The notes: generated by a model from the letters alone, not told the origin. Positions 25,908 through 51,034 are shown, counted from the whole stretch's first letter. The stretch is 51,903 bases of DNA, filler included, from Stramenopiles sp. TOSAG23-2 (GCA_900128395.1; 3 parts of 3 records of this genome joined end to end with filler, not necessarily neighbours in it); one strand, 5' to 3'. A program made the numbers and translations.

Positions 25908-28235
25908 TCATCGTCTCCTTGGTTGCGTCCAAATAAAACCACCATATGATTGTCTTCCACCTCCTCCCATCATCATCATATTATCATTATCGGTATTAGT
26001 AGTAGTATTATTACTTGAATTATCATCATCATCATCATGATGATGTGATGTGACATTTGCAGCAACTCTACTAAATTCATCCTCATCTTCCGTAGCTTCT
26101 TCTTCATCCTCTGTTACTTCATCATTATCATTTTTATCTATGACTACTGCTACTTTTTTTTTCACTTTCTTTTTTTTCTTTTTTTTCTTTTTCTTCTTTT
26201 TCTTTTTGTCGTCATTATCATTATTGCTGCTTGTACTACTGCCATTATTACGTGCATCATTAGTATGATGCCATGAAACTTTTGCATTGAAACTTCTTTC
26301 TTCTTCGCGACGATTTAATTCTTCTGCTTTTTGATGTTTTCTTAATTGTCTTTCTTTCAAAGTTGCTATTCTACGGTCTAATTTAAGCACTTTATCTTGA
26401 TCTCTTTTACGACTTGCTGCTTCTCGATATCGTTCACGTTCCCGTTGTTGTTCTAATTTCATTTGCTCACGTTGTAATGCTAATTGTCTTTTCCTTTCCT
26501 CGCGTTCTTTTCGTTCTGCTTCTTCGCGTTTTAAAATTTGCTTACGACGAATTTCATCTTGTTCTGCTTTTTTCATTTTATCGTATTTATTACGAATAGC
26601 ACGTGAACTAATTCGACGACCTTCTTTCTCATGTTTTGCAATTTCTTCTTGTTCGAATTTCATAAATTCAGCATCTTCCTCTTCTGTACTATTATTCTTT
26701 TTTTTTCCAAGTCTTTTATCGATAATTTGTCGTCGCAATAAATATACTTCATCTTTTCGTGCTTTGTATCTTTTCCATGCTTCATATTTAAATTCTGTAT
26801 TGACTGATGGATTTAACGGCTGTGTTGGAAATGGTTTATCTAACTCTTCCTTTAAATTCAACGTTTTCTTTTGCCACCATGCAACGTAATGGGGGATACA
26901 TAAACTTTTTTTACCCCACGGTCCTCTTTGCCATCCAGATGTTGAACGTGCACCACAATATCTACACCATGGCAAACCATTTTCTGTTAATTCTACGTAA
27001 ATGCTTGGATCTAAAATTTTTATACAAATACCACTTTCCCAACTTTTTTTATCTGGATACTCTGGAAGTGGCTTTTCCTCTTCCTCTTCTGTTTCTTGTT
27101 GTTCTACTTCAGCAACCGTAGTAGTTGTCGTCGTCGTTGTAGTAGTAGTAGTTGTTGTGGTCGCTGTACTATTATTGTTATTATTGTTGTTGTTATTGCC
27201 ATCTGTCTTTTTCTTCTTTTCTTCTTTTTTTCTTTCTAATTCTCTTCTTCTATCTTCCATTGCTTGTTTCTTTGCTGCAATTTTAATATTATTTTCATAT
27301 TCTACTTGCCTCTCCTTTGCCGCAGCTTCATCGTCTATGATTTTTTTCTCTAATATCTTCTTTTCCTCTACTAATGCTTCAATTTCTTCATTATACACAT
27401 CCTGTAATGCTTTTTCATAATCCTCCTTCTTCTTCTCCACTACTACTTCATCTTCATTATTATTATTGTTATCATCTTCATCATCGTCATTGTTGTTATT
27501 ATTAATATCATCATCATTAGAATCAAAATACTTTTCCATTTCGTATTCAAAAAAATATTTTTCATATGCACTTCTTAATTGATACCCTGCACTACTGACA
27601 AATCGATAACCTAATCGTTCTCGAACTTTTTGCCAATCACGATTATCCACCACTTCATCATATCCACCAAAATAATCCACAGCTTCTTTTAATTCTTTTG
27701 GTTCAATAATTTCACCACTACAACGCATTTTTTTAATAGTTGAATTAGGAAATAAATACATACTTTCATTTCTTGGTGATGATGATTTTTTCCGTTTATT
27801 ACTACCACCATTATTGTCCCTTGCATCTGAATTATTTTCATTTTTTCTTTTCTTACTACTACTACTACTACTATTATTATTATTATTATATTGTTGAGTA
27901 GTAGGTGAAGAAGAAGTTTTTAAGCTTCCATCGTCATCGATTAAAACTTTTTCAACTTTTAAATTGATCCATGATGTTTTCCCATCTGAGTATACGACTT
28001 TATGGTAGACATTTCCTTGTGCTTGTTCACAATCGACAATTGCAGCTGCATGCCATTTTCTATCAAGTGCTTGATAAACTCTAATTTCTTTTCCTACGTT
28101 TTCATTTGCAAGAAGATTTCTACTATAACTATCTGTATCATCAATGGATAAATATGTTTTATTATCATTTCGTAAACGTATTGCACGTACTTTTATTGCC
28201 TTTTTATTATTGTCGTCATGATCATAATAACTCAT
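25908..28235 (-). CDS. Chromatin/transcription factor with Tudor, ARID and atypical GATA-type zinc finger
   Basis: VGKEIRVY..DRKWHAAAIV..HKVVYSDG..WINL (Tudor). GGYDEV..RDWQKV..LG..AGYQLRSAYEKY (ARID). CRYCG..SGWQRGPWG..SLCIPH (GATA-like). Confidence 0.8.
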   Translation of the reverse strand: MSYYDHDDNNKKAIKVRAIRLRNDNKTYLSIDDTDSYSRNLLANENVGKEIRVYQALDRKWHAAAIVDCEQAQGNVYHKVVYSDGKTSWINLKVEKVLIDDDGSLKTSSSPTTQQYNNNNNSSSSSSKKRKNENNSDARDNNGGSNKRKKSSSPRNESMYLFPNSTIKKMRCSGEIIEPKELKEAVDYFGGYDEVVDNRDWQKVRERLGYRFVSSAGYQLRSAYEKYFFEYEMEKYFDSNDDDINNNNNDDDEDDNNNNNEDEVVVEKKKEDYEKALQDVYNEEIEALVEEKKILEKKIIDDEAAAKERQVEYENNIKIAAKKQAMEDRRRELERKKEEKKKKTDGNNNNNNNNNSTATTTTTTTTTTTTTTTVAEVEQQETEEEEEKPLPEYPDKKSWESGICIKILDPSIYVELTENGLPWCRYCGARSTSGWQRGPWGKKSLCIPHYVAWWQKKTLNLKEELDKPFPTQPLNPSVNTEFKYEAWKRYKARKDEVYLLRRQIIDKRLGKKKNNSTEEEDAEFMKFEQEEIAKHEKEGRRISSRAIRNKYDKMKKAEQDEIRRKQILKREEAERKEREERKRQLALQREQMKLEQQRERERYREAASRKRDQDKVLKLDRRIATLKERQLRKHQKAEELNRREEERSFNAKVSWHHTNDARNNGSSTSSNNDNDDKKKKKKKKKKKKKKVKKKVAVVIDKNDNDEVTEDEEEATEDEDEFSRVAANVTSHHHDDDDDNSSNNTTTNTDNDNMMMMGGGGRQSYGGFIWTQPRRR

Positions 28236-30321: not shown

Positions 30322-32239
30322 ATGTATAAAAATAAACACCAAGCGGCAATACAAATTCAAAAAATATGGCGTGGTTATTACATAAGAGAAACATATATCA
30401 AAAAAATTAGACGCTTATATGAAAAAATTATATTGCAAATGGAAAATGTTTGTTGCTTACCAGAAGCACTTGTTGAAATTGGATGGAAGCATCGAAATAA
30501 ATTATGTCGTCCTAATTTATCAGCACCGTCATCACCTCCTAAGAAAAGTACTAAAAGTAATACGAACAATAATAATATAGAATCACAAACAACAACAACA
30601 ACAACAACAAAAAGTACTATATCGTCTGAACCAACAAAAAGTTTTGTTGTTAATAATACACAAACCGATGATATGGATAACATAACTGAAAAAAAAGAAG
30701 ACTCCGGACGTAATAATAATGAACAACTAGTAGAAGATAGTTATGAAATTGATAGTTTAAATAATGATGTTGAAAATTTAGAGGATGAACCTTCTGATAA
30801 TAGTTTTTTAATAATTGAAGATGGTGATGATTCAATAGATAATATATTTGAAAATAATCAAACTACAAATTGTGAAAACGAAAATAATAATAAGAAGAAT
30901 GAGAAGAAATATATAAATGAAGATGAGAAAAATTCAGTTGTAATTGTAGCAGAAGAAGTAATTACAACAGATGATGTGATACAAAAAGTGTCAACAAAAG
31001 ATGATAAAGAATGAGAAGAAATATATAAATGAAGATGAGAAAAATTCAGTTGTAATTGTAGCAGAAGAAGTAATTACAACAGATGATGTGATACAAAAAG
31101 TGTCAACAAAAGATGATAAAAAAGAGATTCATGATGATGATGATGATGATAATAGAAATAATAATACATCAATAAATGATGATGAAATTTCATTTGATAA
31201 TGTTGAAATTGAAGTTTCTATAATTAATAGTACATTTGATAATGAAGGAGAAACTACGTTGAGTGTAGACAATACTATACTTGATGAACTACAAGAAGAA
31301 GAAGAAGAAGCAAGTATTGTAGATGACAAGACGACAAATCATAACGAAGAGGAAGAAAAAAATCAACAAGAACAAGACGAAAACGGTGATGATGATGATG
31401 AAGAAATAGAAAATTCAATAAATTATGATGATAGTGAAATTGTACTATATATTGATGAAGATAGTTTAAGTAATAGCGACAATGATGAAAGTAATATAAT
31501 AGAAGATAGTAATCTCGATTTTAATATCAATGATAAGAATTTAGGTAATAATCGTGAAAGAAAGGAAATCAACGATAATAAAAGAACTATGGTTCATGAT
31601 GAAACTGTTGATACAGCATTATATGAACAATCTTTCATCGCTTTTTTAAAAGATATAAACGAACGTGTATCTCCTCAACCAAACGATGATAATAATAATA
31701 ATGATGATGATGATGATGATAATTCAAAAGGATTGAACGACAACAACAACAATGTCAACTCAAAAGGAATACTACTGACAGAAACTACCAATAGCAATGT
31801 GACAAATAATAATACAAAGAAAATTAAAGTAGCATCTATGCCGTGGAATAATGATTCGAGCAAACATATAAATAGTGATTCCAATAAAAAGATTGCTGCA
31901 CAGGATATATCAAAACCTAAAAGTAGTAATAATGATAATGAATTATCAAAAAAACAAATGACTGATGATGATCATGATGATGCTGCCGAGGAAGTAGTAA
32001 TGAAAAAAACAAAAGCTTTTGTCGAAAGTCCATCTAAATCGACGGCAACGACTACTTATTTACAACACGAGACTTCTACAAGTAAGCCTGCCAATAATGG
32101 TACAACTAGCAGCAAAAAATCACCAACTAGAACATCACCCCATCGGCCAACGAATATACATAGAAATGTAAAAATGTTTTCTGGTTCAAGATTTTTAAAA
32201 TTATTAAGCTCTCCAAAGATTATAGATGATGATGAATAA
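30322..32239 (+). CDS. IQ-motif protein (IQCC-like N-terminus) with long acidic low-complexity region; frameshifted by a 112-nt duplication
   Basis: AAIQIQKIWRGYYIR..YEKII..W....CRP. ORFs 30322-31014 and 31001-32239 join when the repeat at 30895/31007 is collapsed. Confidence 0.65.
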
Positions 32240-32611
32240 AATTGCATGTGTGTGTAAGAGAGAGAGAGGGGGCCCCGGCAGCGAATAAGATCTATTTTTA
32301 AAATTATTAAGCTCTCCAAAGATTATAGATGATGATGAATAAAATTGCGTGTGTGTGTAAGAGAGAGAGAGAGAGGGCCGGCAGCGAATAAGATCAACAA
32401 AAACAACACACGGTTTTTATTTTAAAAAGAATCTCAGATATTAAAAAATATGTGTATCATAAATATATAGCACTTCGTAGACAACACTTTTAATATATTA
32501 TACAAACTTCGTACGTCGTAAGAAGTATATATTGGTTTGTAACCAATATATATACATATATTTGGTTTAATTATCTTTTAAGTTATCATATCATATCATA
32601 TGCATATATGA

Positions 32612-32771: not shown

Positions 32772-33990
32772 TCACTGATACGAACTTTTACGACGAATAA
32801 ACTCGTTCCCTTTACCATCTTGATTATCCTCCATGTAACGTTTCCGTTTTCCAATAATATATGAAGTTGGACCTAATGATGCATCATTATCATTATTGTT
32901 GTCATATTTATTACTGATATTATTATTATTATCTGTTACCGATGATGTATTGCTTAGATATTGCAATCCAAAAGTTTTACCATTATTATTAGGAACGTTG
33001 CTACCGCGTTGATTTACATTGTTATTTGTATTTGCATTATTATTATTATTATTTACTAGTTGTATCATTGAATCATCATCATTTCCACTACTATCATCAC
33101 TATCACTACTTGATGAATCAAGTCTTTTATTTTTTTTATTTTGTTTCTTCAACTTTTTCTTTTCCTTTTTCCGTCTCTTCTTTTCTTTCTTTTTTTGAAT
33201 CATCATCATTTCCACTACTATCATCACTATCACTACTTGATGAATCAAGTCTTTTATTTTTTTTATTTTGTTTCTTCAACTTTTTCTTTTCCTTTTTCCG
33301 TCTCTTCTTTTCTTTCTTTTTTTCTTTCTTCTTTTTCTTTTCCTCTTTTCGTTTTTTCTTCATCTCCTTCTTTAATAGTTTCGCTTTTCTTTCTTCCATT
33401 TCTTTCTTCGCACGTTCACGTCTTAATTTTTCCATAATAACCGGGTTTGACAAGATCTCGCGACGTTTTGATTCTTTATTTGACATAATTGCAAATAATG
33501 GATCCTCATGTTTACGCCTAAAAGATTCGTTTTTTTCATTAATCGGTTTGTCTTGTATGAAGCGAGCGCCAGGCACAGCTTTTGTTGATGATCCAGCAGT
33601 AGAAGAGCCACGGCCATCCATGGTAGGAACCATGTCTTTTAACGTTTTTTGTTGTACTATTTCACTTATTGATTTTTTACCTAATAAAAATTGTTCTATT
33701 TCTTCTTTGTCATTTGGACCATTATTATTATTATTATCATCGTCATCATCTCGTTTATTTGCAGCATCATTATACATCCATTCCAATCGCCTCGATTGCA
33801 CTTTACCACCATTTGCCTCTTGCATTTTCCTATATTCCATTGCCTGCCGTTCCTCTTCTATTTGTTTTTTTAATTCTAACATTTTTTTCTCCTCATCTCG
33901 TTTTTCTTTTTCCACTCTAGCAACTTTTTGTACATTTTTTAAATTCTTCGGGTGCCAACTTTTCTTGGCTAAAAAGGACAATCCAGACAT
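32772..33990 (-). CDS. CWC25: Pre-mRNA splicing factor CWC25; frameshifted by a 127-nt duplication
   Basis: LSFLAKKSWHPKNLKN (CIR N-term), RLEWMY, EQFLLGK, HEDPLFAI and ILSNPV. Collapsing the repeat at 33069/33196 joins it to ORF 32772-33248. Confidence 0.88.
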
Positions 33991-37820: not shown

Positions 37821-39260
37821 ATGACATCCTCCCATTCAGCGTTTTTAAGAGACCAATTGTTAAATATCAATGTAGAAGCATTTTCAGAAGGTGGATTTGT
37901 TAATGATATTAGTGAATACGTAGCAGGGATGGAATATGATGCTGGTTTGGAATATTTAATGGCAGTATCAGGAGAAGAATCCCCTACTAAATTTATTTCT
38001 GTGTTGAAACAATTAGAAAGACGCAAGAATGGTGGATCGAATACAAATAATAACAAGAAACCTCCTGCTCCACAAGCAAAGACTGTATTTTGGGGTCCAA
38101 CACAACCAATTAATAATAATAATGACAACAACAATAATAAAAAGAAAAAGAAAAAAAATTCTCGTGGTAAATCTATTCTTTCAACGAGTATGAAAAAAAA
38201 TTATAATAATAATAAGAATGTAGATAATAATACATCATCATCGACAACAAGAAATACATCATCATCCTCCAATAAATCGAATTCTTCTGGAAGGGTAAAA
38301 GGTGATTATAGCGATTATTTTAAAGGTAAAACAATGAACATGAAAAAAACAAACAACAAAAATGACAATGATGATGAAAAACAACAAACTCGTGGATCAA
38401 ATTATACAAATTGTGCTTTATGTGGCTCAATTATTTGGTATAATTTACCCGAGCAAAGAATTTGTAATTCAAAGTTACACCCAGAATGTGAGAATCGTCC
38501 GATTGACTCCGTAGATCCACGTACAGGTTTAATTGATTTTGATTATGGTGGAAAACGTCTATCAAATAAAAACAAAAAGAAAAAAGAACAAGCATTAGAA
38601 AACGATCCAGAAACTAAAAAATATTTAGATGGATATGCAACAGCATTTGAACAAAAGGAACGATTGGTTCATTTCGATAAAGAAGTAGCAGCAAGATCTA
38701 GAGTATTTGATGATCAAAATGATTATTTCCAAGATTCTAATGATAGATGGCTTTCACAAGCAGAAAGAGATTTAGCACGTAGAAAAGCAGAAGCAATTCG
38801 AGAAAAGAAAACCATGAAACGTATAAATGTACAGATCAGTTTCGATATTGCAGGTAGGCGAGTAATGTCATATAATGAGGACGACAATGATAATGATACT
38901 AATAATATGCAAAAAAACAATAATAATAATATGCATAGCAAAAATATGACGACATTATTATCATCTAATATGAATCCAACAAAGAAATCCTCAGATGGTA
39001 GTAGAAAAAACAAGTTTGGTATAGAAAAAGATGTTTTAGAACAAAACGAAGGGACAGGGTTACATCAAAATGTTTTATTTGGACGTGCTGGTGAAATTTA
39101 TAAACGAATACAGACATCACTTTTATATGATGATGATGGTACAGAAGCGGAGGAGGACGATAAAACTAGAAGTAAGAAGAAAAAAGCGTTGAATTTGCCT
39201 CGGAAAAACCGCCGTGTTATCATCAATCCAGAAGAAGATTTTGATGATGATGAACCATAA
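37821..39260 (+). CDS. TRIP4: Activating signal cointegrator 1 / Rqt4-like protein
   Basis: NCALCGSII. KERLVHFDKEVAARSRVFDDQNDYF..WLSQAER. ISFDIAGRRV. No C-terminal ASCH domain. Confidence 0.8.
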   Translation: MTSSHSAFLRDQLLNINVEAFSEGGFVNDISEYVAGMEYDAGLEYLMAVSGEESPTKFISVLKQLERRKNGGSNTNNNKKPPAPQAKTVFWGPTQPINNNNDNNNNKKKKKKNSRGKSILSTSMKKNYNNNKNVDNNTSSSTTRNTSSSSNKSNSSGRVKGDYSDYFKGKTMNMKKTNNKNDNDDEKQQTRGSNYTNCALCGSIIWYNLPEQRICNSKLHPECENRPIDSVDPRTGLIDFDYGGKRLSNKNKKKKEQALENDPETKKYLDGYATAFEQKERLVHFDKEVAARSRVFDDQNDYFQDSNDRWLSQAERDLARRKAEAIREKKTMKRINVQISFDIAGRRVMSYNEDDNDNDTNNMQKNNNNNMHSKNMTTLLSSNMNPTKKSSDGSRKNKFGIEKDVLEQNEGTGLHQNVLFGRAGEIYKRIQTSLLYDDDGTEAEEDDKTRSKKKKALNLPRKNRRVIINPEEDFDDDEP

Positions 39261-39754: not shown

Positions 39755-40860
39755 AATGTAATAAAAACTATGTATATATATAAATACACAAACTATCCGT
39801 AAACTATATATATGGTATATATATATATGTACTATTTCTCTCTACCAACGATGTAACTAAATATATATATATTTATATTTGTAATGATGGATCTTCGTTA
39901 TTCATTTTTTATTATTATTTTTTTTTTGGATTTTGAAGAAACAACAACAGAAATCGTCCTTCTAATAGATCTAAACTGAAGTATAAAGTTCTGTAGTCTT
40001 ATATCCTTTGATGTGTGCATATACCGATTTTTCATCTGATGGGAGATCTCGGACTGTTCCCACTTTCTTATACTTGTTAGTATAATAACAGCACTACTAA
40101 CAAATATAAAATTTGGTGTTGTTGTGCCTTGAAAAAGAGAAAAATTTAGAAAAATTTAGAAAATTTCTTGTAAATTCCCTATTTCTTTTTTGGATTTATT
40201 GGATAACTTGGATACCTAGACTCCACCTGCCATGTAAATAGTAATAATATTGTAGCTTAAATACATATATTATAATTTTATATTCGGAAATTATTAGAAT
40301 TATGGCCAAACTGGATAAATAAATTGACACAATTGGCTAAGGCGGCTCTACTCTGTCTTTAAATATAAGTTAAGGTGCAAAAGCTACATCATGCTATCAA
40401 TGGCAAAAGCAGTTTAAAATATAATGCTGTGCCCATGTAATCCAGAAATTAATGGCCCATATTGCATATTAGCTTCTTTCCAGATTTCTAGAAAGCTGGA
40501 GAAAGCTCTGGAATAGATAGCATACAATACTGTAGACTACAAGTAATACAGTACAACAGAATGAACAAGAGCTGGGCAAGCGTAACACATCACCACAATC
40601 ATCACGGCAGAGTGATTTTTTGTTGGTAAAAAATATTATTATTTTTATGACCAATTTAAATTAATGGTATGTCCATGCTAATACCATACGACACAGATTG
40701 TGTTGCCTACATGTAAATCAAGTATATATGATGTATCAAGTAGTAGATGGATGTATATTGAAAGAGAGAGACACACACGGTAAGTGGATAATGTGAAAAA
40801 AGAATATCTCTACTGTTGTAGGCTAGAGCAAGACAATAATATAAATAAGATAAATACACA

Positions 40861-42315
40861 ATGAATATATTAGAAGCAAAACCAATGTCATTCATTACAG
40901 GATTAGGGCATTATCAAGGTATGGACGATAATGATGGTAATACTAATAGTGGTGGTGGTTCATCCCATAAAATTGTCGGTGGAGTTACGGAACACGTGTT
41001 ATGGGTTGTATTAACCATATTATATAGTTTGTTGTGTCTATTAGTTGTCGTGCAATTGTTAAGAATTATTGTCTATCGGCATAATGTCGTATCGTTCCAA
41101 GGTGGCTTCTTGTCATTAAGTTTGATATGGTCAGCGCTTCGCTTGCTCTTTTGGTTCAGTAATACGTTAGATTGGCCAGAATGGGTACAATTATTATGTT
41201 ATTGGTTGCCTGATTTATTACAGTTTGCTACGTTTGCTGATTTAGTTGTTTATTATTTAAAAATTGTTTACATACGACAATGGGACCGTATTCAATGCAA
41301 GGTATGGACTATATATATAACGGCGAATTTAACCGTCTCCGTCGCCTTGTCGGTGTGGCTTTATTTGTTTCAAATCGTATACAAAGGCCAAAGAGAGCGT
41401 GAAAATGACGTTGCATTTTATTATAGTATATTTTCTGGTATTACGTTTGGTGTATTAATGGTGTTTATTTCATATTATGGTTACAGGGTCTTTAAAATTA
41501 GATTGACCAGAAGAATGCGACTTCACCATCCATTTGCATCAACAACAGTTATGGTTGGTCTTACGTTTCTAGTTTTCATTGTATTTTTAACTCGTTGTAT
41601 TTATGGTTTTTTACAAGCATGTGGTGGCCATGCTATGTCAGATCCAGTTGGATCAAGACGCGAGCAATGGAAAACATTGCCACAAGCTGTTGATGTTGCA
41701 ACCTTTGTTCTATTAATACTATGGGAATTGTTGCCAACATTTGCGTTAGTTATGCTATTTCGACGTATACCAAAGACAAGTAATAATTTATGTACCATAT
41801 GGTGTGATAAAATAAGCGGTAGAAACAAAAGTTTAAATAATAGTTTTGATGAGACGTTTAATAATGCACGCACTGGCTTGTTAGAAAATGGAAATAATGG
41901 AAATTCGAAAAATAATTCATATGGTGCAAATGGTAGCCATAGCCATAGTGGTGATGATAAGACACATTTAAGAAATATGTCAACCATACCTTCCTCTGGC
42001 AATAGCAATGGATTTACATATAATGGCGGAGAATCGCCAAGAAATAAAAAATCAAATGCATCTTCGTTACTTGGTAGTGGCAACGATATATTTGATAATG
42101 AAAATCGTTACGATAGTGATGGTGAATCATCACCATATTCATTAAATACATATTCATTGACTCCGGGTACACCTTTGTTCTTGAATAATACATTAGGAGC
42201 TATGGGTGGACAATCTTTTAATGATAATGATAAACAAAATGAAACAATGCAACAAAATTTACAATCGCACACGTCTCCATATGATTTATTGCATGGAAAT
42301 TCTAGTCTTAGCTGA
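40861..42315 (+). CDS. 7-TM protein, GPR137/TOM1 (DUF1084)-like, copy 1
   Basis: Seven hydrophobic helices. SFQGGFL.L.LIWSALR, YWLPDLLQFATF, WELLPT..V..FR and FDNENRYDSD motifs. Confidence 0.85.
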   Translation: MNILEAKPMSFITGLGHYQGMDDNDGNTNSGGGSSHKIVGGVTEHVLWVVLTILYSLLCLLVVVQLLRIIVYRHNVVSFQGGFLSLSLIWSALRLLFWFSNTLDWPEWVQLLCYWLPDLLQFATFADLVVYYLKIVYIRQWDRIQCKVWTIYITANLTVSVALSVWLYLFQIVYKGQRERENDVAFYYSIFSGITFGVLMVFISYYGYRVFKIRLTRRMRLHHPFASTTVMVGLTFLVFIVFLTRCIYGFLQACGGHAMSDPVGSRREQWKTLPQAVDVATFVLLILWELLPTFALVMLFRRIPKTSNNLCTIWCDKISGRNKSLNNSFDETFNNARTGLLENGNNGNSKNNSYGANGSHSHSGDDKTHLRNMSTIPSSGNSNGFTYNGGESPRNKKSNASSLLGSGNDIFDNENRYDSDGESSPYSLNTYSLTPGTPLFLNNTLGAMGGQSFNDNDKQNETMQQNLQSHTSPYDLLHGNSSLS

Positions 42316-42780
42316 AGAATATGCGTGGGATATATGGAGCGAAAGAGTATTTATATTAATTTAAAATATTATTTTTTTTTCAAGTACATATCATATTAAT
42401 ATGTTTTATAAAATTAATGACGGGTGTTTAAAATAATTTAATTTACGCATAATGTGTTTAAAATATACGACCCGTCGTACGAATTCGTACGTACATAAAT
42501 ATTGAAATACGAACCGCAGGGGTCGTACATATATGTGCCATAATATATAATAATTGAATAAATACTCTCGTACGTCTCGTCGAACGAATTCAGTATTAAA
42601 AAAAGAGACATCTCTCTACCCCAGTAAACTTTCTATATTATACTTCGTATAGTACACGCGTGTATAATATTTTTATATTTTTTTAGAATATATTTTTTTT
42701 ATGCTTTATATAAAATAAAATATGCATAAAAGTTTGAAAAACACACACGCGCACACACACACACACACACACCACTTAAT

Positions 42781-44353
42781 CTATGCACCTGTAAATGCTG
42801 CATTACTACTACTCTCACTATTTTCATCCTTGGTCATTTGTCTTTCCATTTCCTTTGAAACTACATCTGTAAATCGTAAGAAATCACCAATTCTTATTCC
42901 TTCAGAATTGTCATCCGATGGATCGAAACGTTCTGTCGCACGCTTTATAATCTCTTCACTACTACCTAATCGTGTTGCAAAATCTGCTCCTTTTGGCAAT
43001 GCATTTTCTTTACCCCATGTTAAACGAATATCTTCTCTCCATGTCTCCCACTGATCATGCCATTTAGATGTGCCTTCATCAAAATGATTCAACATACCCG
43101 ATTGGATTTTAATACGCTTAACTTCCATTTCATTATCATGTTTTGCAACTGGTTGCTTTAGTTTATTTAGTTCTTCTTCCCCTTCTTTTGGTAAATCATA
43201 ATCCCTTTCAGTCGCTTGCATTGCATATGCATTTTTCATTCCTTGCATTGATTCTAATATTGCCGCATGTAATATTCGTTTGATTTCAATACGCATCATC
43301 AACGCTTGCTTTTGCTTTGATGTCAATTTGATGGGATTAGGGGAATTTTCATATGCTTCTGAAAAATAATACAAATCCTCTTCCAAAGATGTAGGGTATT
43401 TTCGCAATAATGATTCTGCTCCATGTAACAAGGAGGAGAATAAGTTAAATTCATTTTCCCCATTAATCGGTTCAGCTGGGTTAATTTCTTTGAAAGCTTT
43501 TGTTATTTTTCCTGCTTCCTCTTTTCGTTTCTTATCACTTTCAAGTTTTGCCTTTAACTCTTCCGGCGATAATGTAGGCTGTTGATTTTCTTCTCCCGCA
43601 CCAGCAAGTTTGCCTAAAGCGGATTTTTTTAAAATATCTTGCAATAATTTATTCATATCATTTTTTGGTTCTCCAGCACTGTTTTAAAATATCTTGCAAT
43701 AATTTATTCATATCATTTTTTGGTTCTCCAGCACTGTCATCAGAATTACCTTGTCCAGTAAGAGCATCCATACCTGGTATTGCTTTTCCTAATGCTTGTT
43801 TTATAGCATCTGCAATTATTGCATTCATATCGCCTGCTGGTGGTGGTGGTGAATTTGGTGCCCCATTACCAGCAGCAGCAGTATGTGCACTTCCTGCGAC
43901 ATTTGGAGGCAGTGGTGGTGGCATTTGCATACCTGGTGGTGGTGTAACACCAGCTGGAAATTGCATACCGGGTGGTGGTGGAGGAAATTGACTGGGTGGA
44001 ACATTATCAGGCGTACCACATGATCCTGAATCTGGCAAAACATCTTTTCTTGTTAATTCACGTATTCTCATCCCCTCAATAAATCGTGGTGATGGTTGCC
44101 CATCCAATGCAACATGTGTTTGCATATCAGCTTCTAGTTGCTGCCGTTTTAATAATGCCATTTTATCGTTTAACAACGCATCTTCCTGCTCCGTAGCTTG
44201 ATCAAGACCTAGTCCAAATCCAACTGTTTCATATGCATTATTTGGTAAAACGAAACCATATGTGACTAATAAATCAGGATTTGTCATAATCCCATAACTT
44301 ATAAATATTTCTTCTCCAGCTTTATAATCATTATCTGCATATATTTTTAAGAA
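42781..44353 (-). pseudogene. 5'-truncated duplicate of the SET-domain gene
   Basis: Begins mid-SET domain at the duplication junction. An internal 55-nt duplication frameshifts it. Probably an assembly product. Confidence 0.7.
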
Positions 44354-44572
44354 GACCAATTTAAATTAATGGTATGTCCATACTAATTATTAAACATACG
44401 ACACACACATTGCCTACATGTAAATCAACAAGAAGTATTTATATATGTATCAAGTAGTAGATGGATGTATGTTGAAAGAGAGACACACACGGTAAAGTGG
44501 AATGTGAAAAAAGAGAATCTCTACTGTCTGTAGGCTAGAGCAAGACAATAATATAAATAAGATAAATACACA

Positions 44573-46027
44573 ATGAATATATTAGAAGCAAAACCAATGT
44601 CATTCATTACAGGATTAGGGCATTATCAAGGTATGGACGATAATGATGGTAATACTAATAGTGGTGGTGGTTCATCCCATAAAATTGTCGGTGGAGTTAC
44701 GGAACACGTGTTATGGGTTGTATTAACCATATTATATAGTTTGTTGTGTCTATTAGTTGTCGTGCAATTGTTAAGAATTATTGTCTATCGGCATAATGTC
44801 GTATCGTTCCAAGGTGGCTTCTTGTCATTAAGTTTGATATGGTCAGCGCTTCGCTTGCTCTTTTGGTTCAGTAATACGTTAGATTGGCCAGAATGGGTAC
44901 AATTATTATGTTATTGGTTGCCTGATTTATTACAGTTTGCTACGTTTGCTGATTTAGTTGTTTATTATTTAAAAATTGTTTACATACGACAATGGGACCG
45001 TATTCAATGCAAGGTATGGACTATATATATAACGGCGAATTTAACCGTCTCCGTCGCCTTGTCGGTGTGGCTTTATTTGTTTCAAATCGTATACAAAGGC
45101 CAAAGAGAGCGTGAAAATGACGTTGCATTTTATTATAGTATATTTTCTGGTATTACGTTTGGTGTATTAATGGTGTTTATTTCATATTATGGTTACAGGG
45201 TCTTTAAAATTAGATTGACCAGAAGAATGCGACTTCACCATCCATTTGCATCAACAACAGTTATGGTTGGTCTTACGTTTCTAGTTTTCATTGTATTTTT
45301 AACTCGTTGTATTTATGGTTTTTTACAAGCATGTGGTGGCCATGCTATGTCAGATCCAGTTGGATCAAGACGCGAGCAATGGAAAACATTGCCACAAGCT
45401 GTTGATGTTGCAACCTTTGTTCTATTAATACTATGGGAATTGTTGCCAACATTTGCGTTAGTTATGCTATTTCGACGTATACCAAAGACAAGTAATAATT
45501 TATGTACCATATGGTGTGATAAAATAAGCGGTAGAAACAAAAGTTTAAATAATAGTTTTGATGAGACGTTTAATAATGCACGCACTGGCTTGTTAGAAAA
45601 TGGAAATAATGGAAATTCGAAAAATAATTCATATGGTGCAAATGGTAGCCATAGCCATAGTGGTGATGATAAGACACATTTAAGAAATATGTCAACCATA
45701 CCTTCCTCTGGCAATAGCAATGGATTTACATATAATGGCGGAGAATCGCCAAGAAATAAAAAATCAAATGCATCTTCGTTACTTGGTAGTGGCAACGATA
45801 TATTTGATAATGAAAATCGTTACGATAGTGATGGTGAATCATCACCATATTCATTAAATACATATTCATTGACTCCGGGTACACCTTTGTTCTTGAATAA
45901 TACATTAGGAGCTATGGGTGGACAATCTTTTAATGATAATGATAAACAAAATGAAACAATGCAACAAAATTTACAATCGCACACGTCTCCATATGATTTA
46001 TTGCATGGAAATTCTAGTCTTAGCTGA
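44573..46027 (+). CDS. 7-TM protein, GPR137/TOM1-like, copy 2
   Basis: Translation identical to 40861-42315. Confidence 0.8.
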   Translation: MNILEAKPMSFITGLGHYQGMDDNDGNTNSGGGSSHKIVGGVTEHVLWVVLTILYSLLCLLVVVQLLRIIVYRHNVVSFQGGFLSLSLIWSALRLLFWFSNTLDWPEWVQLLCYWLPDLLQFATFADLVVYYLKIVYIRQWDRIQCKVWTIYITANLTVSVALSVWLYLFQIVYKGQRERENDVAFYYSIFSGITFGVLMVFISYYGYRVFKIRLTRRMRLHHPFASTTVMVGLTFLVFIVFLTRCIYGFLQACGGHAMSDPVGSRREQWKTLPQAVDVATFVLLILWELLPTFALVMLFRRIPKTSNNLCTIWCDKISGRNKSLNNSFDETFNNARTGLLENGNNGNSKNNSYGANGSHSHSGDDKTHLRNMSTIPSSGNSNGFTYNGGESPRNKKSNASSLLGSGNDIFDNENRYDSDGESSPYSLNTYSLTPGTPLFLNNTLGAMGGQSFNDNDKQNETMQQNLQSHTSPYDLLHGNSSLS

Positions 46028-46492
46028 AGAATATGCGTGGGATATATGGAGCGAAAGAGTATTTATATTAATTTAAAATATTATTTTTTTTTCAAGTACA
46101 TATCATATTAATATGTTTTATAAAATTAATGACGGGTGTTTAAAATAATTTAATTTACGCATAATGTGTTTAAAATATACGACCCGTCGTACGAATTCGT
46201 ACGTACATAAATATTGAAATACGAACCGCAGGGGTCGTACATATATGTGCCATAATATATAATAATTGAATAAATACTCTCGTACGTCTCGTCGAACGAA
46301 TTCAGTATTAAAAAAAGAGACATCTCTCTACCCCAGTAAACTTTCTATATTATACTTCGTATAGTACACGCGTGTATAATATTTTTATATTTTTTTAGAA
46401 TATATTTTTTTTATGCTTTATATAAAATAAAATATGCATAAAAGTTTGAAAAACACACACGCGCACACACACACACACACACACCACTTAAT

Positions 46493-49229
46493 CTATGCAC
46501 CTGTAAATGCTGCATTACTACTACTCTCACTATTTTCATCCTTGGTCATTTGTCTTTCCATTTCCTTTGAAACTACATCTGTAAATCGTAAGAAATCACC
46601 AATTCTTATTCCTTCAGAATTGTCATCCGATGGATCGAAACGTTCTGTCGCACGCTTTATAATCTCTTCACTACTACCTAATCGTGTTGCAAAATCTGCT
46701 CCTTTTGGCAATGCATTTTCTTTACCCCATGTTAAACGAATATCTTCTCTCCATGTCTCCCACTGATCATGCCATTTAGATGTGCCTTCATCAAAATGAT
46801 TCAACATACCCGATTGGATTTTAATACGCTTAACTTCCATTTCATTATCATGTTTTGCAACTGGTTGCTTTAGTTTATTTAGTTCTTCTTCCCCTTCTTT
46901 TGGTAAATCATAATCCCTTTCAGTCGCTTGCATTGCATATGCATTTTTCATTCCTTGCATTGATTCTAATATTGCCGCATGTAATATTCGTTTGATTTCA
47001 ATACGCATCATCAACGCTTGCTTTTGCTTTGATGTCAATTTGATGGGATTAGGGGAATTTTCATATGCTTCTGAAAAATAATACAAATCCTCTTCCAAAG
47101 ATGTAGGGTATTTTCGCAATAATGATTCTGCTCCATGTAACAAGGAGGAGAATAAGTTAAATTCATTTTCCCCATTAATCGGTTCAGCTGGGTTAATTTC
47201 TTTGAAAGCTTTTGTTATTTTTCCTGCTTCCTCTTTTCGTTTCTTATCACTTTCAAGTTTTGCCTTTAACTCTTCCGGCGATAATGTAGGCTGTTGATTT
47301 TCTTCTCCCGCACCAGCAAGTTTGCCTAAAGCGGATTTTTTTAAAATATCTTGCAATAATTTATTCATATCATTTTTTGGTTCTCCAGCACTATAATCAG
47401 AATTACCTTGTCCAGTAAGAGCAAAAATATCTTGCAATAATTTATTCATATCATTTTTTGGTTCTCCAGCACTGTCATCAGAATTACCTTGTCCAGTAAG
47501 AGCATCCATACCTGGTATTGCTTTTCCTAATGCTTGTTTTATAGCATCTGCAATTATTGCATTCATATCGCCTGCTGGTGGTGGTGGTGAATTTGGTGCC
47601 CCATTACCAACAGCAGCAGTATGTGCACTTCCTGCGACATTTGGAGGCAGTGGTGGTGGCATTTGCATACCTGGTGGTGGTGTAACACCAGGTGGAAATT
47701 GCATACCGGGTGGTGGTGGAGGAAATTGACTGGGTGGAACATTATCAGGCGTACCACATGATCCTGAATCTGGCAAAACATCTTTTCTTCTTAATTCACG
47801 TATTCTCATCCCCTCAATAAATCGTGGTGATGGTTGCCCATCCAATGCAACATGTGTTTGCATATCAGCTTCTAGTTGCTGCTGTTTTAATAATGTCATT
47901 TTATCGTTTAACAACGCATCTTCCTGCTCCGTAGCTTGATCAAGACCTAGTCCAAATCCAACTGTTTCATATGCATTATTTGGTAAAACGAAACCATATG
48001 TGACTAATAAATCAGGATTTGTCATAATCCCATAACTTATAAATATTTCTTCTCCAGCTTTATAATCATTATCTGCATATATTTTTAAGAACTTTGTCTT
48101 GTCGTCGTAATCATATGCAAATTGTAATGCCGGATAGGAGTTGTGTTATAAATATTTCTTCTCCAGCTTTATAATCATTATCTGCATATATTTTTAAGAA
48201 CTTTGTCTTGTCGTCGTAATCATATGCAAATTGTAATGCCGGATAGGAGTTGTGATGATTTAGAAAATCACAAAAGGGTACCATCAATGACAATATACCA
48301 AAATCCTTTGCTTTTTCTTTTTCAGTTGTAACAATTGAATGTCCATATCTTTCCGTAATATTCAACGCAAATGATCGTGATAATGATATGGCATATGCCC
48401 ATGCAAAATTTTCATATGTGAATTGGTTTGCTTCAAAAAATTCATGCATCACAGGTTGCAATTCCGTGTTTTCAGTTGTAACAATTGAATGTCCATATCT
48501 TTCCGTAATATTCAACGCAAATGATCGTGATAATGATATGGCATATGCCCATGCAAAATTTTCATATGTGAATTGGTTTGCTTCAAAAAATTCATGCATC
48601 ACAGGTTGCAATTCCGTATATAATTTTCCTACTTTTTTTCTTTGCTTACGCACTCTTGCTATTATTGGACATTGCCATTCCTCTGGACACTGCAGTAATG
48701 CAATATCTTGCTCGCTCCAAAATAACATATGATCTAATTCATTCATCTTTGGCATGATATCTAAATACTCTCTCCATTCTGAATTAGGTTGGTATTTTTC
48801 ATACAACGTATGCAATGCTAAAACAACTTTCTCCCCAACTACATCTGAGAGCATATCTAACACTTTTCCTATTTTTGAACGAGAAGCTGATAGTTTAGAC
48901 ATAAATAAGGAACTAGGAATTTGCAATAATAAATCGCCTCGTTTTTTATCTACTTTAGAGGTTAAGCCACGATGTAATACCTTTGTACCTATTGTCGGAA
49001 AGTATTTAATCTCTAAATCGTGCTTTGGTATATCCTTCGAATCCAACCATTTTAAAAATTTAACTTCCGATTCTGACAAATCACTAGTAGTAGTTTGTTT
49101 GTTTTCCTTCTTTAAAGAATGTGCAAAATTACAAATATTATGAATATTAATAATAGTAAAAACAAAAAATGTTAGAAAATATGTTAGGATGAAAGTGACC
49201 ATTCCATAATTTCTTCGCTTATTGATCAT
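46493..49229 (-). CDS. SET-domain lysine methyltransferase (Rubisco LSMT/SETD3/SETD6 class) with hydrophobic N-terminus
   Basis: HRGL, SEWREYL..MP, FAWAYAISLSRSF, MVPFCDFLNH, GEEIFISYG..N.DLLVTYGF and YPTSLEED. The frame is restored by collapsing a 109-nt duplication (48037/48146). In-frame 81-nt and 150-nt duplications are also present. Confidence 0.85.
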
Positions 49230-49826
49230 GATAAGAAGATAAATTTTCTTTTCTTTTTTTTTTCTTCCAAATCCGTTGTTGTTGTTAATAAGTGACCATT
49301 CCATAATTTCTTCGCTTATTGATCATGATAAGAAGATAAATTTTCTTTTCTTTTTTTTTTCTTCCAAATCCGTTGTTGTTGTTAATGTTGTTCGATCAAT
49401 CAATCTAGGTGTACAAACTGAACCTTTGATTTCTTTGTGATTGTTTTCCAGGATTTATTAATAGTTATATTACTCTTCCGTATTGTTTATACATCGCTAT
49501 GTCTAAAAAAAATATATATATATATATATATATTCTTTGCTATTAATAACCAGCTAAACAACACCGGCGGCGGGGATGGAAAACGAGAAGAGGCGAGAGG
49601 GCTTCGTGTTAGGTGTTAGGTTTCAATTATTTCATAGGTAAATATACTTCTTAGTTATATATATAAAACGTACAATGCTATTTGATGCTATCGGCGAATG
49701 TTGTATAATATATATTTTTAAGTGATAGAACCCACCCCATCATTCATTATTAGAAAAGAAACATCTCTCACAGATAGTATACTATATGTAGAAACAACAA
49801 ACAAGAAGATATATTCATCATCAACT

Positions 49827-50872
49827 ATGAATAGTAATGAAGAGATCGAGACATATTCATATGTCGATTTCATACATAACGATAAATCGAAAGAATTAAT
49901 TGCTTGTGATGTTGGTAAAAAAATGTTAAATGTAATGAAGAGATCGAGACATATTCATATGTCGATTTCATACATAACGATAAATCGAAAGAATTAATTG
50001 CTTGTGATGTTGGTAAAAAAATGTTAAATGCAAATATACAATTTATAAAATGTAGAACAAATTGTTCTGGTCCAAAGGAACAAGAAGCGATTGATTATTT
50101 TTCAAATGGCGTCGTTGATTTTGGTAGAATGTGATCTCCAGCGTACCTAAAAGCTAAAGAATTTCTAATTCCTTTAGTCGCGCCTGTTGTTAGTTGGGCT
50201 TCTGGCGCACAATCAAAAGGTACAACTTATACGTCAGATTTAATTGTAAAAAATGACTCTAAATATAGTAACTGGGAAGATTTAAAAGGTTCCGTATTTG
50301 CATACAACGATGATGTTAGTTTGAGTGGTTATGTATGTTTAAAGATTTGGATGCACGAATATAAGCGTAGGGATACTACGAAGCCATACTTTTCTAACGC
50401 ATATGCTACAGGTAGTCATTCTAAATCCATTCAAGCTGTTATTGATGGGAAAGCTGCTTGCGCTGTAATAGATAGAATAACACGTGAAGCGATAGAAAAA
50501 GAAAATCCAACTATAAGATCAAAATATAGAATTTTAAAGGATGTTATAATAGGCGAAATGCCTGCACAACCTATATGTATACGGAAAGATATTGATATAA
50601 AAAGTCGAGATAAAATTTTAAATGCATTTTTGAAAATAAACAATAGTAATAGTATCGAAATGAAAAAATTAAATTTTGTAAAATATGAAAAAGTAAATTC
50701 TAAATTTTATGAAGGGTTACAAACGAAAATAAATAATAGTGAATATATAGAATTTTCCCCTTCATCATCAACAACAAAAACAAGTAGTTGTAATAAACGT
50801 AAACGGAAATGTATGAATAATAACAATGTAAAAAAGACATGTATATCAACAGAGAGTAATGGTGATAATTAA
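49827..50872 (+). CDS. PhnD/phosphonate-binding-family protein with in-frame UGA (50132-50134); candidate selenoprotein, ~315 aa
   Basis: After collapsing a 98-nt duplication (49834/49932), a single frame reads MNSNEE...CSGP..DYFSNGVVDFGRM*SPAY...APV...YTSDLIV..DS..WEDLKG..FAYNDDVSLSGY...TGSHSKSIQAVIDGKAACAVID. These are periplasmic-binding-protein motifs on both sides of the TGA. Confidence 0.82.
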
Positions 50873-50933
50873 TTTTTGTATAAAATAGTATCATTTATAT
50901 GGTGCGATACAGACAGGGCAAGAATGTATATGT

Positions 50934-51034
50934 ATAACAGAAGATAATATAAATGAAGTTGGCAAGACTAAAATTATTTAAAAAAAAAAGAAAAGAAAAA
51001 GTTTTGAATATTAACCAACTGATATATTTGTTGT
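50934..51034 (+). promoter_or_regulatory. Candidate eukaryotic SECIS element
   Basis: AUGA 50953-56 / UGAU 51020-23 core. Helix II AGUUGG-CAAGACU pairs with AGUUUUG-(8-nt bulge)-CCAACU. Unpaired AAAA at 50970-73. Helix I AUAACAGA/UUUGUUGU. Confidence 0.75.

What the first reader, a model, noticed from the sequence alone, without database searches (positions are those of the whole stretch)
49827..51034. Candidate new eukaryotic selenoprotein: PhnD-like binding protein with in-frame UGA and a 3' UTR SECIS
Seen: the ORF track shows only the last 183 aa (50321-50872), but the frame extends upstream through one TGA (50132-50134) in the context VDFGRM*SPAY, with family-like sequence on both sides. 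Collapsing a 98-nt duplication links it to ATG 49827, giving ~315 aa with the UGA at codon 70. About 80 nt after the TAA stop is a SECIS-shaped hairpin. Other genes here (CFDP1, GPR137-like, CWC25) end in TGA, so this is not a general code change. Recalled knowledge: bacterial PhnD/SsuA-type proteins with the YN..S.SGY and TGSH motifs usually have Cys at this spot (D.aF.CglPY), and a Cys/UGA pair plus a SECIS is the standard selenoprotein signature. Inference: Sec sits at a helix N-terminus facing the ligand cleft of a Venus-flytrap fold. I do not know this fold among the standard eukaryotic selenoprotein families, which are mostly thioredoxin-fold oxidoreductases. It may bind or react with an oxyanion or a metal(loid).
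Basis: partly seen in the sequence, partly recalled or inferred. Interest (0 to 1): 0.93.

Follow-up and report, generated by a model that had tools for sequence, protein, structure and literature searches.

The report
Selenocysteine gene for arsenic-sensor-like binding protein
A small marine-type eukaryote carries a gene for a two-lobed binding protein, related to bacterial arsenic sensors, in which the key ligand-holding cysteine appears to be replaced by the rare amino acid selenocysteine, which would make it a new kind of eukaryotic selenoprotein.

Summary
Window 49827-50872 (+) encodes a 315-aa PF12974 (PhnD-superfamily) protein once a 98-nt tandem copy (49933-50030) is removed. That copy is an assembly artefact, absent from an independent 98%-identical contig, L001. 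The frame crosses one TGA (50132-50134, codon 70).

Evidence for selenocysteine:
- The TGA is kept in L001 and in a eukaryotic ortholog of 41% identity (L002).
- Gene calls from at least two further relatives stop exactly before it.
- 107 of 116 homologs with a residue at that column have Cys.
- TGA is an ordinary stop elsewhere in the window.

Solved structures place the family next to the arsenic-oxyanion sensors ArrX and AioX. The TGA aligns with AioX Cys106, the residue that bonds arsenite, and five other pocket residues are conserved.

A hairpin with AUGA...AA...GA lies 80 nt after the stop. L002 has one of the same unusual layout, and it occurs nowhere else in 169 kb. However, no Rfam SECIS model detects either, and my descriptor is post hoc.

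Sec machinery, expression and selenium content could not be tested. No paper searched describes this family as a selenoprotein.

Verdict: very likely a new eukaryotic selenoprotein family. The ligand is unknown, probably a metalloid or oxyanion.

The parts
49827..49932 (+). CDS, 5' part: ATG 49827-49829 and codons 1-35 plus one base. It joins 50031 once the extra tandem copy is removed.
   Evidence: L001 has this sequence followed directly by the stretch that matches window 50031 onward.
49933..50030 (+). Extra 98-nt tandem copy that breaks the frame. It is an assembly artefact, or a variant private to this assembly.
   Evidence: family D4; D16. It is absent from L001. The window holds at least 9 more tandem duplications of 60-149 nt, most of them perfect.
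50031..50872 (+). CDS, remainder: codons 36-315 and stop TAA 50870-50872. PF12974 domain. Pocket residues of the 315-aa protein: Y102, S132, S134, H165, D183.
50132..50134 (+). In-frame TGA, codon 70, read here as selenocysteine. It aligns with Cys of homologs and with AioX Cys106.
50946..51028 (+). Candidate SECIS hairpin. Helix I is 50946-50951 paired with 51023-51028. The 5' bulge AAU is 50952-54. The GA/AG tandem is G50955 A50956 with G51021 A51022. Helix IIa is 50957-62 with 51015-20. An 8-nt 3' internal loop is 51007-14. Helix IIb is 50963-69 with 51000-06. The 30-nt apical loop starting AAAA is 50970-99.
   Evidence: Not detected by Rfam.

Best explanation
The gene encodes a soluble 315-aa protein with no signal peptide. 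It has the two-lobe periplasmic-binding-protein fold and belongs to a Cys-bearing subfamily of the PhnD superfamily. The nearest solved relatives of that subfamily are the arsenic-oxyanion sensors ArrX and AioX. Codon 70 (UGA) is decoded as selenocysteine, directed by a SECIS-type kink-turn hairpin in the 3' UTR. The selenol sits at the N-terminal end of helix 71-76 in the cleft between the lobes. That is the position where AioX uses Cys106 to bond arsenite. It is surrounded by the conserved Tyr102, Ser132, Ser134, His165 and Asp183.

Shown here: the conserved UGA, the Cys/UGA pairing, the fold, and the pocket conservation.

Inferred: Sec insertion itself; the hairpin being the SECIS; and the ligand. 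I take the ligand to be a small soft metalloid or oxyanion (arsenite-like or selenite-like) that is captured by, or reacts with, the selenol. The protein would then act as a cytosolic sensor, chaperone or enzyme rather than as a transporter subunit.
For: The UGA is conserved in DNA. It is present in the window, in L001 (98% identity) and in L002. L002 is 41% identical, has about 47% GC, and its neighbours read, by my eye without a family search, as a mitochondrial ATP synthase OSCP subunit and ribosomal protein L28e.

The flanks are conserved on both sides: GRMUSPAYLKAK against GRLUSPAYLRAK.

Gene calls end exactly before the codon:
- P0015, P0164 and P0160 (same species group).
- P0025 (67% identity, cluster of 14 members) and P0050 (68%).
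- C-terminal calls start just after the codon (P0004, P0007, P0008, P0010, P0012, P0017).
- P0162 equals the L001 translation except for W at the TGA, so the W forms are table-4 readings.

Cys stands at the aligned column in 107 of 116 other homologs that have a residue there, out of 155 aligned. These include the 36-40% identical forms with GRMCSP(A/S)Y.

In a tree of 52 rows, an 8-row clade (SH-aLRT 98) holds the window, L002 and 6 calls that start after the site. It holds no Cys row. On the other side of the midpoint root, 27 of 31 rows have Cys.

TGA is a normal stop in the window (10 of 28 long ORFs).

Fold:
- The model has pLDDT 89.4 and pTM 0.84.
- Foldseek's top hits are AioX 8ed5 (E 1.2e-19, TM 0.81 by target) and ArrX 7l22.
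- The family profile against PDB gives ArrX 1.1e-49, AioX 2.3e-44, PtxB 2.8e-28 and PhnD 2e-20.

Pocket: the AioX residues Cys106, Tyr131, Ser161, Ser163, His192 and Asp210 align with U70, Y102, S132, S134, H165 and D183 (alignment; residue list and the As-S link from passages of PMC5908839; conservation).

SECIS:
- The hairpin has AUGA, then 13 paired positions, then AAAA, and a 3' UGAU that fits the UGAN/KGAW core (passages of PMC3753652).
- L002 has a hairpin of the same layout 57 nt after its stop.
- A descriptor of that layout hits only these 3 UTR sites in 168,918 nt of real sequence. Its relaxed form hits 11, 12 and 3 times in three 2-Mb random sequences.
- The window-versus-L001 differences in the hairpin are confined to the apical loop.
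Against: No Rfam SECIS model matches the window or L002 UTRs, even when searching only 161-234 nt at E up to 10.

The hairpin is atypical. It has an 8-nt one-sided internal loop in helix II, the kind of bending that SECISearch3 filters against, and a 30-nt apical loop. Its folding energy is only z = -1.7.

A looser energy-ranked scan did not place it among the top 40 of 219 sites. The L002 hairpin has CGAC rather than KGAW at the 3' core and a C.C pair above the tandem. My layout descriptor was written after seeing both hairpins.

No Sec machinery could be looked for: no genome is held and no tRNA lies in the window.

For relatives other than L001 and L002, only the position of a stop is known, not that it is TGA.

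The function is inferred by homology only. AioX Tyr88 is not conserved. The protein has no export signal and no two-component partner.
Confidence: 0.8

Rival explanations
1. The UGA is read through or reassigned without selenium. Examples would be near-cognate Trp or Cys insertion, or a lineage in which UGA is a sense codon. The protein would then be full length but not a selenoprotein.
For: Public gene calls translate it as W under table 4 (P0003 and P0162). No Rfam SECIS match was found. The three other ORFs on L002 end in TAA or TAG, so TGA-as-stop is not shown for that lineage.
Against: In the window TGA ends 10 of 28 long ORFs, with the next in-frame stop 0-30 codons later. Only one genuine frame bridges a TGA. 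Homologs have Cys at the site, not Trp: 107 of 116, and the single W is the table-4 call. A single conserved UGA at a conserved Cys site in two distant eukaryotes is the selenoprotein pattern. Both UTRs carry an AUGA...AA...GA hairpin.
Confidence: 0.07
2. The gene is broken or naturally split. Translation would stop at codon 69, and the downstream part would be dead or made separately.
For: Table-11 gene calls give separate N-terminal (57-91 aa) and C-terminal (170-228 aa) pieces.
Against: The stop is kept at one codon across orthologs of 41-98% identity, with amino-acid conservation on both sides and no other frame damage. The 69-residue piece supplies strands and helices of lobe 1 in a single confident fold. 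The first Met of the downstream calls lies inside a strand.
Confidence: 0.05
3. The TGA lies in a very short intron (GTAGAATGTGATCTCCAG, 18 nt, in frame) that is spliced out.
For: The window sequence has GT...AG borders around the TGA, and the length is a multiple of three.
Against: L002 has CCGG where the window has CCAG, so the acceptor is not conserved. The six codons inside encode GRMUSP, which aligns residue for residue with GRMCSP of the Cys homologs and with the conserved family motif. Removing them would delete the conserved Cys position.
Confidence: 0.03
4. The TGA is a sequencing or assembly error for TGT, TGC or TGG.
For: This assembly is error-prone. It has many artefactual tandem duplications, one of them inside this gene.
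Against: The same TGA stands in independent contigs L001 and L002. It is also implied by many independent gene calls that end at ..GRM.
Confidence: 0.01

Closest known systems
AioX (Rhizobium/Pseudorhizobium sp. NT-26) and ArrX (Chrysiogenes arsenatis), periplasmic arsenite and arsenate sensor binding proteins
   Same: They are the best solved relatives by sequence, by family profile and by fold. Both have Cys at the position of the UGA; in AioX this Cys106 bonds arsenite. Tyr131, Ser161, Ser163, His192 and Asp210 are also conserved.
   Different: This protein is eukaryotic, has no signal peptide, and has no partner histidine kinase or regulator gene. It has Sec in place of Cys. AioX Tyr88 is replaced by a C-S-G-P-K loop. 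Identity to these structures is about 18-20%. The ligand has not been tested.
PhnD, PtxB and HtxB: phosphonate, phosphite and hypophosphite binding proteins of ABC transporters (PF12974, TIGR01098, TIGR03431)
   Same: Same Pfam family (E 5.8e-27, above the cut-off) and the same fold.
   Different: Scores are below the NCBIfam cut-offs: 97.9 against 112.05 for TIGR01098 and 78 against 261.1 for TIGR03431. PhnD has Gly65 where AioX has Cys106 (PMC5908839 passages). No transporter genes lie nearby.
SaoB, a bacterial ABC-transporter substrate-binding selenoprotein (bioRxiv 10.1101/2022.07.06.499078, passages read)
   Same: It is a binding-protein fold with Sec placed in the predicted ligand pocket and proposed to ligate a metal or organometallic substrate.
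   Different: SaoB is bacterial, exported and part of an ABC transporter locus. It has a CU dipeptide motif and is related to different solved binding proteins (3VVE and 4ZV2 are named in the paper). It is not PF12974.
Established eukaryotic selenoprotein families, for example the 42 algal families of PMC7539508
   Same: An in-frame UGA with Cys homologs, and a 3' UTR stem-loop with AUGA, AA and GA.
   Different: The passages I saw name three novel families (PDI_e, AhpC_b, SymSEP), and the text has no occurrence of 'phosphonate' or 'ABC'. By recall, known families are mostly thioredoxin-fold oxidoreductases. This one is a binding-protein fold.

Membership tests
Eukaryotic selenoprotein gene | In-frame UGA conserved among orthologs, with coding conservation on both sides | tested here: met
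   The window, L001 and L002 all have TGA at the same codon. Calls from two more relatives end at ..GRM.
Eukaryotic selenoprotein gene | Homologs carry Cys at the aligned position | tested here: met
   107 of 116 homologs with a residue at the column have Cys. The rest are G 4, S 3, P 1 and W 1 (the table-4 call). 39 of the 155 have no residue there.
Eukaryotic selenoprotein gene | UGA is otherwise a stop codon in the organism | tested here: met
   10 of 28 ORFs of 200 aa or more end in TGA, with the next in-frame stop 0-30 codons later.
Eukaryotic selenoprotein gene | SECIS element in the 3' UTR (kink-turn core UGAN/KGAW, helix II, unpaired A's in the apical loop) | tested here: inconclusive
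   For: the hairpin at 50946-51028 has the core, the distance and the A's, and a like-shaped hairpin stands in L002. Against: no Rfam SECIS hit, an 8-nt one-sided loop, a post hoc descriptor, and a CGAC core in L002. SECISearch3 was not available.
Eukaryotic selenoprotein gene | Sec machinery in the genome (tRNA-Sec, eEFSec, SBP2, PSTK, SepSecS, SPS2) | not testable with these tools
   No genome is held for the window. No tRNA lies in the window.
Eukaryotic selenoprotein gene | Selenium incorporated into the protein | not testable with these tools
   This needs 75Se labelling or mass spectrometry.
PF12974 Phosphonate-bd / PhnD superfamily | Profile match above the curated cut-off | tested here: met
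   95.1 bits against a cut-off of 27, E 5.8e-27.
PhnD equivalog TIGR03431 / TIGR01098 transporter binding proteins | Score above the NCBIfam cut-off | tested here: not met
   78 against 261.1, and 97.9 against 112.05. The same holds for 7 relatives.
AioX/ArrX/ArxX arsenic-oxyanion sensor subfamily | Pocket residues Cys106, Tyr131, Ser161, Ser163, His192, Asp210 | tested here: met
   They align with U70, Y102, S132, S134, H165 and D183. Sec stands for Cys.
AioX/ArrX/ArxX arsenic-oxyanion sensor subfamily | Gating Tyr88 | tested here: not met
   In the profile alignment Tyr88 falls on the residue after the SGP loop, which is Lys51 here.
AioX/ArrX/ArxX arsenic-oxyanion sensor subfamily | Periplasmic export signal and an adjacent sensor kinase and regulator | tested here: not met
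   The N-terminus MNSNEEIETYSY runs straight into strand 9-14 of the model. No signal-peptide predictor was run. The neighbouring genes are eukaryotic (SET/LSMT-like and others).
AioX/ArrX/ArxX arsenic-oxyanion sensor subfamily | Binds arsenite or arsenate | not testable with these tools
   This needs a binding assay.
SaoB substrate-binding selenoproteins | CU motif, exported ABC-transporter subunit | tested here: not met
   The context here is M-U-S, and there is neither a transporter locus nor a signal peptide.

The most novel reading that the evidence does not exclude
This would be the first eukaryotic selenoprotein with a periplasmic-binding-protein fold, and the first in which Sec serves as the ligand-capturing atom of an AioX-type metalloid pocket. 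It would act as a cytosolic arsenite-, antimonite- or selenite-capturing sensor, chaperone or enzyme of marine-type small eukaryotes. It would have been acquired from bacteria as a Cys form and then converted to Sec. It would be served by a lineage-specific compact kink-turn SECIS: a 3-nt AAU bulge, helix I abutting the GA tandem, and an 8-nt 3' loop in helix II. Standard SECIS models miss that form. A clade-specific Cys47 in the C-S-G-P loop may pair with Sec70 as a second ligand or as a resolving residue.
Probability: 0.3. Interest if true: 0.85.

Novelty: new variant of a known kind. Interest (0 to 1): 0.72.

Why it matters
New eukaryotic selenoprotein families are rare, and nearly all known ones are redox enzymes. 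A Sec residue in the ligand pocket of a binding-protein fold, at the very position where a bacterial sensor bonds arsenite, would do three things:
- It would widen what selenocysteine is used for.
- It would tie selenium use to metalloid handling in ocean-type microbial eukaryotes.
- It would give a concrete protein for testing selenium-arsenic antagonism at atomic level.

It also exposes two practical gaps. Public catalogues hold this gene only as fragments or as a table-4 product with Trp at the site. The candidate SECIS form escapes the Rfam models, so similar genes may be missed systematically.

Tried and rejected
Hypotheses rejected:
- 18-nt intron around the TGA. The acceptor is not conserved in L002, and the enclosed codons match the Cys homologs.
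- General code change.
- Sequencing error.

SECIS tests that did not help:
- Rfam searches on 2.9 kb, on L001 plus L002, and on the UTRs alone gave no SECIS hit in the UTRs. The one SECIS_4 hit (E = 1) lies elsewhere on the minus strand of L002.
- An energy-ranked loose AUGA/GA scan was not discriminating: 219 sites, and the candidate was not in the top 40.
- A second possible core, GUGA at about 51080, has no partner GA and is lost in L001 (GTAATG).

Searches for more DNA or context:
- A scan of viral contigs found no relative.
- A scan of genome contigs found only 5 cyanobacterial Cys homologs of 27-33% identity.
- Their gene neighbourhoods, and those of L003-L005, gave no functional lead: Na/H exchanger-Usp, TPR, pentapeptide, DUF29 and peroxiredoxin.
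- The 'shorter' protein search added little (4 hits).

Tools that gave nothing:
- No whole genome is held.
- Supplementary files of the selenoproteome papers were not opened. Full family lists there could bear on the novelty claim.

Full report
**The observation**

Table 11 gives a 183-aa ORF at 50321-50872. The same frame stays open upstream through a single TGA at 50132-50134, in the context VVDFGRM-TGA-SPAYLKAK.

A 98-nt tandem duplication precedes it. By my reading the two copies are 49835-49932 and 49933-50030. An independent metagenome contig, L001 (98% identical at protein level), has only one copy. It gives an unbroken 315-codon frame from the ATG that matches window 49827, with TGA as codon 70 and TAA as the stop.

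The duplication is therefore an artefact or a private variant of this assembly. The window holds at least nine further tandem duplications of 60-149 nt, most of them perfect. One of them, 49193-49386, is also single-copy in L001.

**Is the TGA meaningful?**

- TGA is an ordinary stop here. It ends 10 of 28 ATG-started ORFs of 200 aa or more, and the next in-frame stop follows within 0-30 codons.
- Only two frames in the window bridge a TGA with 45 or more codons on each side. One is this gene. The other is an antisense frame inside a MORN-repeat ORF.
- The Pfam match to PF12974 (E 5.8e-27) runs across the TGA.
- A second eukaryotic contig, L002, encodes an ortholog of 41% identity with TGA at the same codon: CGRL-TGA-SPAYLRAK. 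L002 has about 47% GC. Its neighbours read, by my eye without a family search, as a mitochondrial ATP synthase OSCP subunit and ribosomal protein L28e.

Public protein catalogues hold the gene in three forms:
- N-terminal fragments that end exactly at ..GRM: P0015, P0164 and P0160; P0025 at 67% identity, with 14 cluster members; and P0050 at 68%.
- C-terminal fragments that start a few codons after the site.
- 315-319-aa products with W at codon 70.

P0162 equals the L001 translation except for that W, and L001 has TGA there. The W forms are therefore table-4 readings.

**Cys homologs**

I aligned 155 other proteins from the two protein searches. Of these, 116 have a residue at the column of the TGA: Cys in 107, Gly 4, Ser 3, Pro 1 and Trp 1 (the table-4 call). 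The remaining 39 have no residue there: 23 start after the site, 3 end just before it, and 13 are partial or gapped. Forms of 36-40% identity read GRMCSP(A/S)Y (P0011 and P0014).

I built a quick maximum-likelihood tree of 52 rows: the window and L002, cut to the part after the site, plus 50 of the 155 hits. Left out were P0003, P0007, P0009, the N-terminal fragments P0015, P0025 and P0050, P0041, P0051, and everything from P0061 onward.

- The window, L002 and six calls that start after the site form a clade with SH-aLRT 98 and no Cys row.
- On the other side of the midpoint root, 27 of 31 rows have Cys.

This is the classical Sec/Cys pattern.

**Fold and pocket**

A model built on a 75-row alignment is confident: mean pLDDT 89.4 and pTM 0.84. 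Only the basic C-terminal tail, about residues 288-315, is disordered. Residue 70 lies between strand 66-68 and helix 71-76.

Foldseek ranks AioX (8ed5, E 1.2e-19, TM 0.81 by target) and ArrX (7l22) first, then PtxB, PhnD and HtxB. A single-sequence search of PDB sequences gives ArrX 3.5e-10 and AioX 3.7e-8. The family profile gives ArrX 1.1e-49, AioX 2.3e-44, PtxB 2.8e-28 and PhnD 2e-20.

From passages of PMC5908839: arsenite is linked to the sulphur of AioX Cys106. The pocket is Tyr88, Cys106, Tyr131, Ser161, Ser163, His192 and Asp210. PhnD has Gly65 at the Cys106 position.

In the alignment, a constant offset of 38 between chain 6esk_A and the paper's numbering places these residues as follows:

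| AioX residue | This protein |
|---|---|
| Cys106 | TGA codon (U70) |
| Tyr131 | Y102 |
| Ser161 / Ser163 | S132 / S134 |
| His192 | H165 |
| Asp210 | D183 |

These positions are nearly invariant in the family: Y 134 of 144, S 148 of 150, S 141 of 150, H 150 of 152 and D 144 of 152.

Tyr88 is not kept. It aligns with the residue after a conserved S-G-P loop. In the Sec clade that loop is preceded by a Cys (C47) that the Cys forms lack.

The protein has no hydrophobic N-terminus, since strand 1 starts at residue 9. No transporter or two-component genes lie nearby. It scores below the NCBIfam cut-offs for PhnD-type binding proteins.

**SECIS**

The hairpin at 50946-51028 is built as follows:
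- a 6-bp helix I;
- a 5' AAU bulge;
- the G.A/A.G tandem (AUGA with UGAU, which fits the UGAN/KGAW core quoted in PMC3753652);
- 13 paired positions on the 5' strand, interrupted by an 8-nt loop on the 3' strand only;
- a 30-nt apical loop that starts AAAA.

In a SECISearch-like pattern scan that I wrote, 14 sites in 103,806 nt (both strands) pass with at most one mismatch. Two pass with none: this one, and a site inside a coding region.

L002 has, 57 nt after its stop, a hairpin of the same layout: helix I GAUG/CAUC, an AAU bulge, the GA tandem, a 6-position helix IIa, an 8-nt 3' loop, helix IIb, and a loop that starts AAA. A descriptor of that layout hits only the three UTR sites (window, L001, L002) in 168,918 nt of real sequence. 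A relaxed version also hits only those three, and hits 11, 12 and 3 times in three 2-Mb first-order random sequences. Between the window and L001 the hairpin differs only by a 5-nt indel in the apical loop.

Against this:
- No Rfam SECIS model matches either UTR, even in 161-234-nt searches at E up to 10.
- The energy z-score is only -1.7.
- A loose energy-ranked scan did not single it out.
- The one-sided loop is the kind of bending that SECISearch3 filters against.
- The L002 3' core is CGAC.
- I wrote the descriptor after seeing both hairpins.

I rate the hairpin as the probable but unproven SECIS.

**What could not be tested**

- No genome is held, so tRNA-Sec and the Sec factors could not be sought.
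- For orthologs other than L001 and L002 I know only that a stop stands at the codon, not which stop it is.

**Literature**

Full-text searches were run for:
- selenoprotein with PhnD;
- substrate-binding protein with SECIS;
- selenoproteome with phosphonate;
- periplasmic binding protein;
- Sec-containing with phosphonate;
- novel-selenoprotein surveys.

They found no report of a PhnD- or AioX-like selenoprotein.

The nearest is SaoB, a bacterial ABC-transporter binding protein with a CU motif from a different family. Its authors state they knew of no earlier binding-protein selenoprotein (passages of bioRxiv 10.1101/2022.07.06.499078).

The algal selenoproteome survey (PMC7539508, passages only) reports 42 families and three novel ones. 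Its main text does not contain 'phosphonate' or 'ABC'. Supplementary lists were not opened.

**Verdict**

This is very likely (about 0.8) a genuine selenoprotein gene and a new eukaryotic selenoprotein family. Its Sec sits at the ligand-bonding position of an AioX/ArrX-type pocket.

The mechanism I commit to is capture of, or reaction with, a soft metalloid or oxyanion by the selenol in a cytosolic two-lobe protein. This is an inference from homology. A redox-enzyme role with Cys47 as partner is the main alternative within the same reading.

Noticed in passing
window 16633-16752, 19801-20044, 21266-21539, 30895-31118, 32191-32395, 33068-33321, 48037-48254, 48319-48617, 49193-49386, 49823-50018: There are ten tandem duplications of 60-149 nt, eight of them 98-100% identical and two about 95%. 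Two of them (49193-49386 and 49823-50018) are single-copy in the independent contig L001. They look like assembly artefacts and they corrupt ORFs. For example, the SET/LSMT-like ORF 48111-49304 (-) repeats a peptide of about 50 aa.
   Followed up: partly
window 40817-44528 and 44529-48240: A segment of about 3.7 kb is present twice (99-100% over the compared 300-nt blocks), with the same 484-aa ORF at 40861-42315 and 44573-46027. It may be a real segmental duplication or another assembly artefact. The window also holds 176 N.
   Followed up: no
window about 49520-49660 against L001 about 555-570: The window has a stretch of about 130 nt upstream of the gene (TA repeat plus GC-richer sequence) that L001 lacks. 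This was seen by eye when comparing.
   Followed up: no
window 27523-27565 (-): This site matches my SECIS-like pattern perfectly (14 paired positions, no bulge, many G-U pairs). It lies inside the coding region of the ARID-domain ORF 25908-28235 (-) and is probably chance.
   Followed up: no
Proteins P0003, P0162, P0163, P0165, P0169 (public catalogue): Public gene calls of this gene carry Trp at codon 70, because short AT-rich contigs were translated with table 4. Other calls split the gene into fragments of 57-91 aa and 170-228 aa.
   Followed up: yes
Codon 47 of the 315-aa protein (window 50063-50065), motif C-S-G-P: A Cys directly before the conserved SGP loop is present in every Sec-clade sequence that covers it (window, L001, L002, P0025, P0050). 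It is absent from the Cys forms, which have Q, R, T, S or V. It lies four residues before the position aligned with AioX Tyr88. It may be a second ligand or a resolving residue.
   Followed up: partly
L002 4843-4852 with 5012-5022: A long-range helix of about 10 bp (CGAUCUCCAG with CUGGAGGAUCG) encloses most of the L002 3' UTR, including the candidate hairpin, in the minimum-energy fold. Its significance is unknown, and the fold z-score is not better than shuffles.
   Followed up: no
Window genes 105-3077, 6174-10382, 10795-12258, 22760-24160, 25908-28235, 37821-39260: The context is a gene-dense, intron-poor, 29-36% GC eukaryotic region. Its genes include PDZ/PA-domain, WW-domain, alpha-carbonic anhydrase, fumarase, ARID and TRIP4-like proteins.
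   Followed up: no
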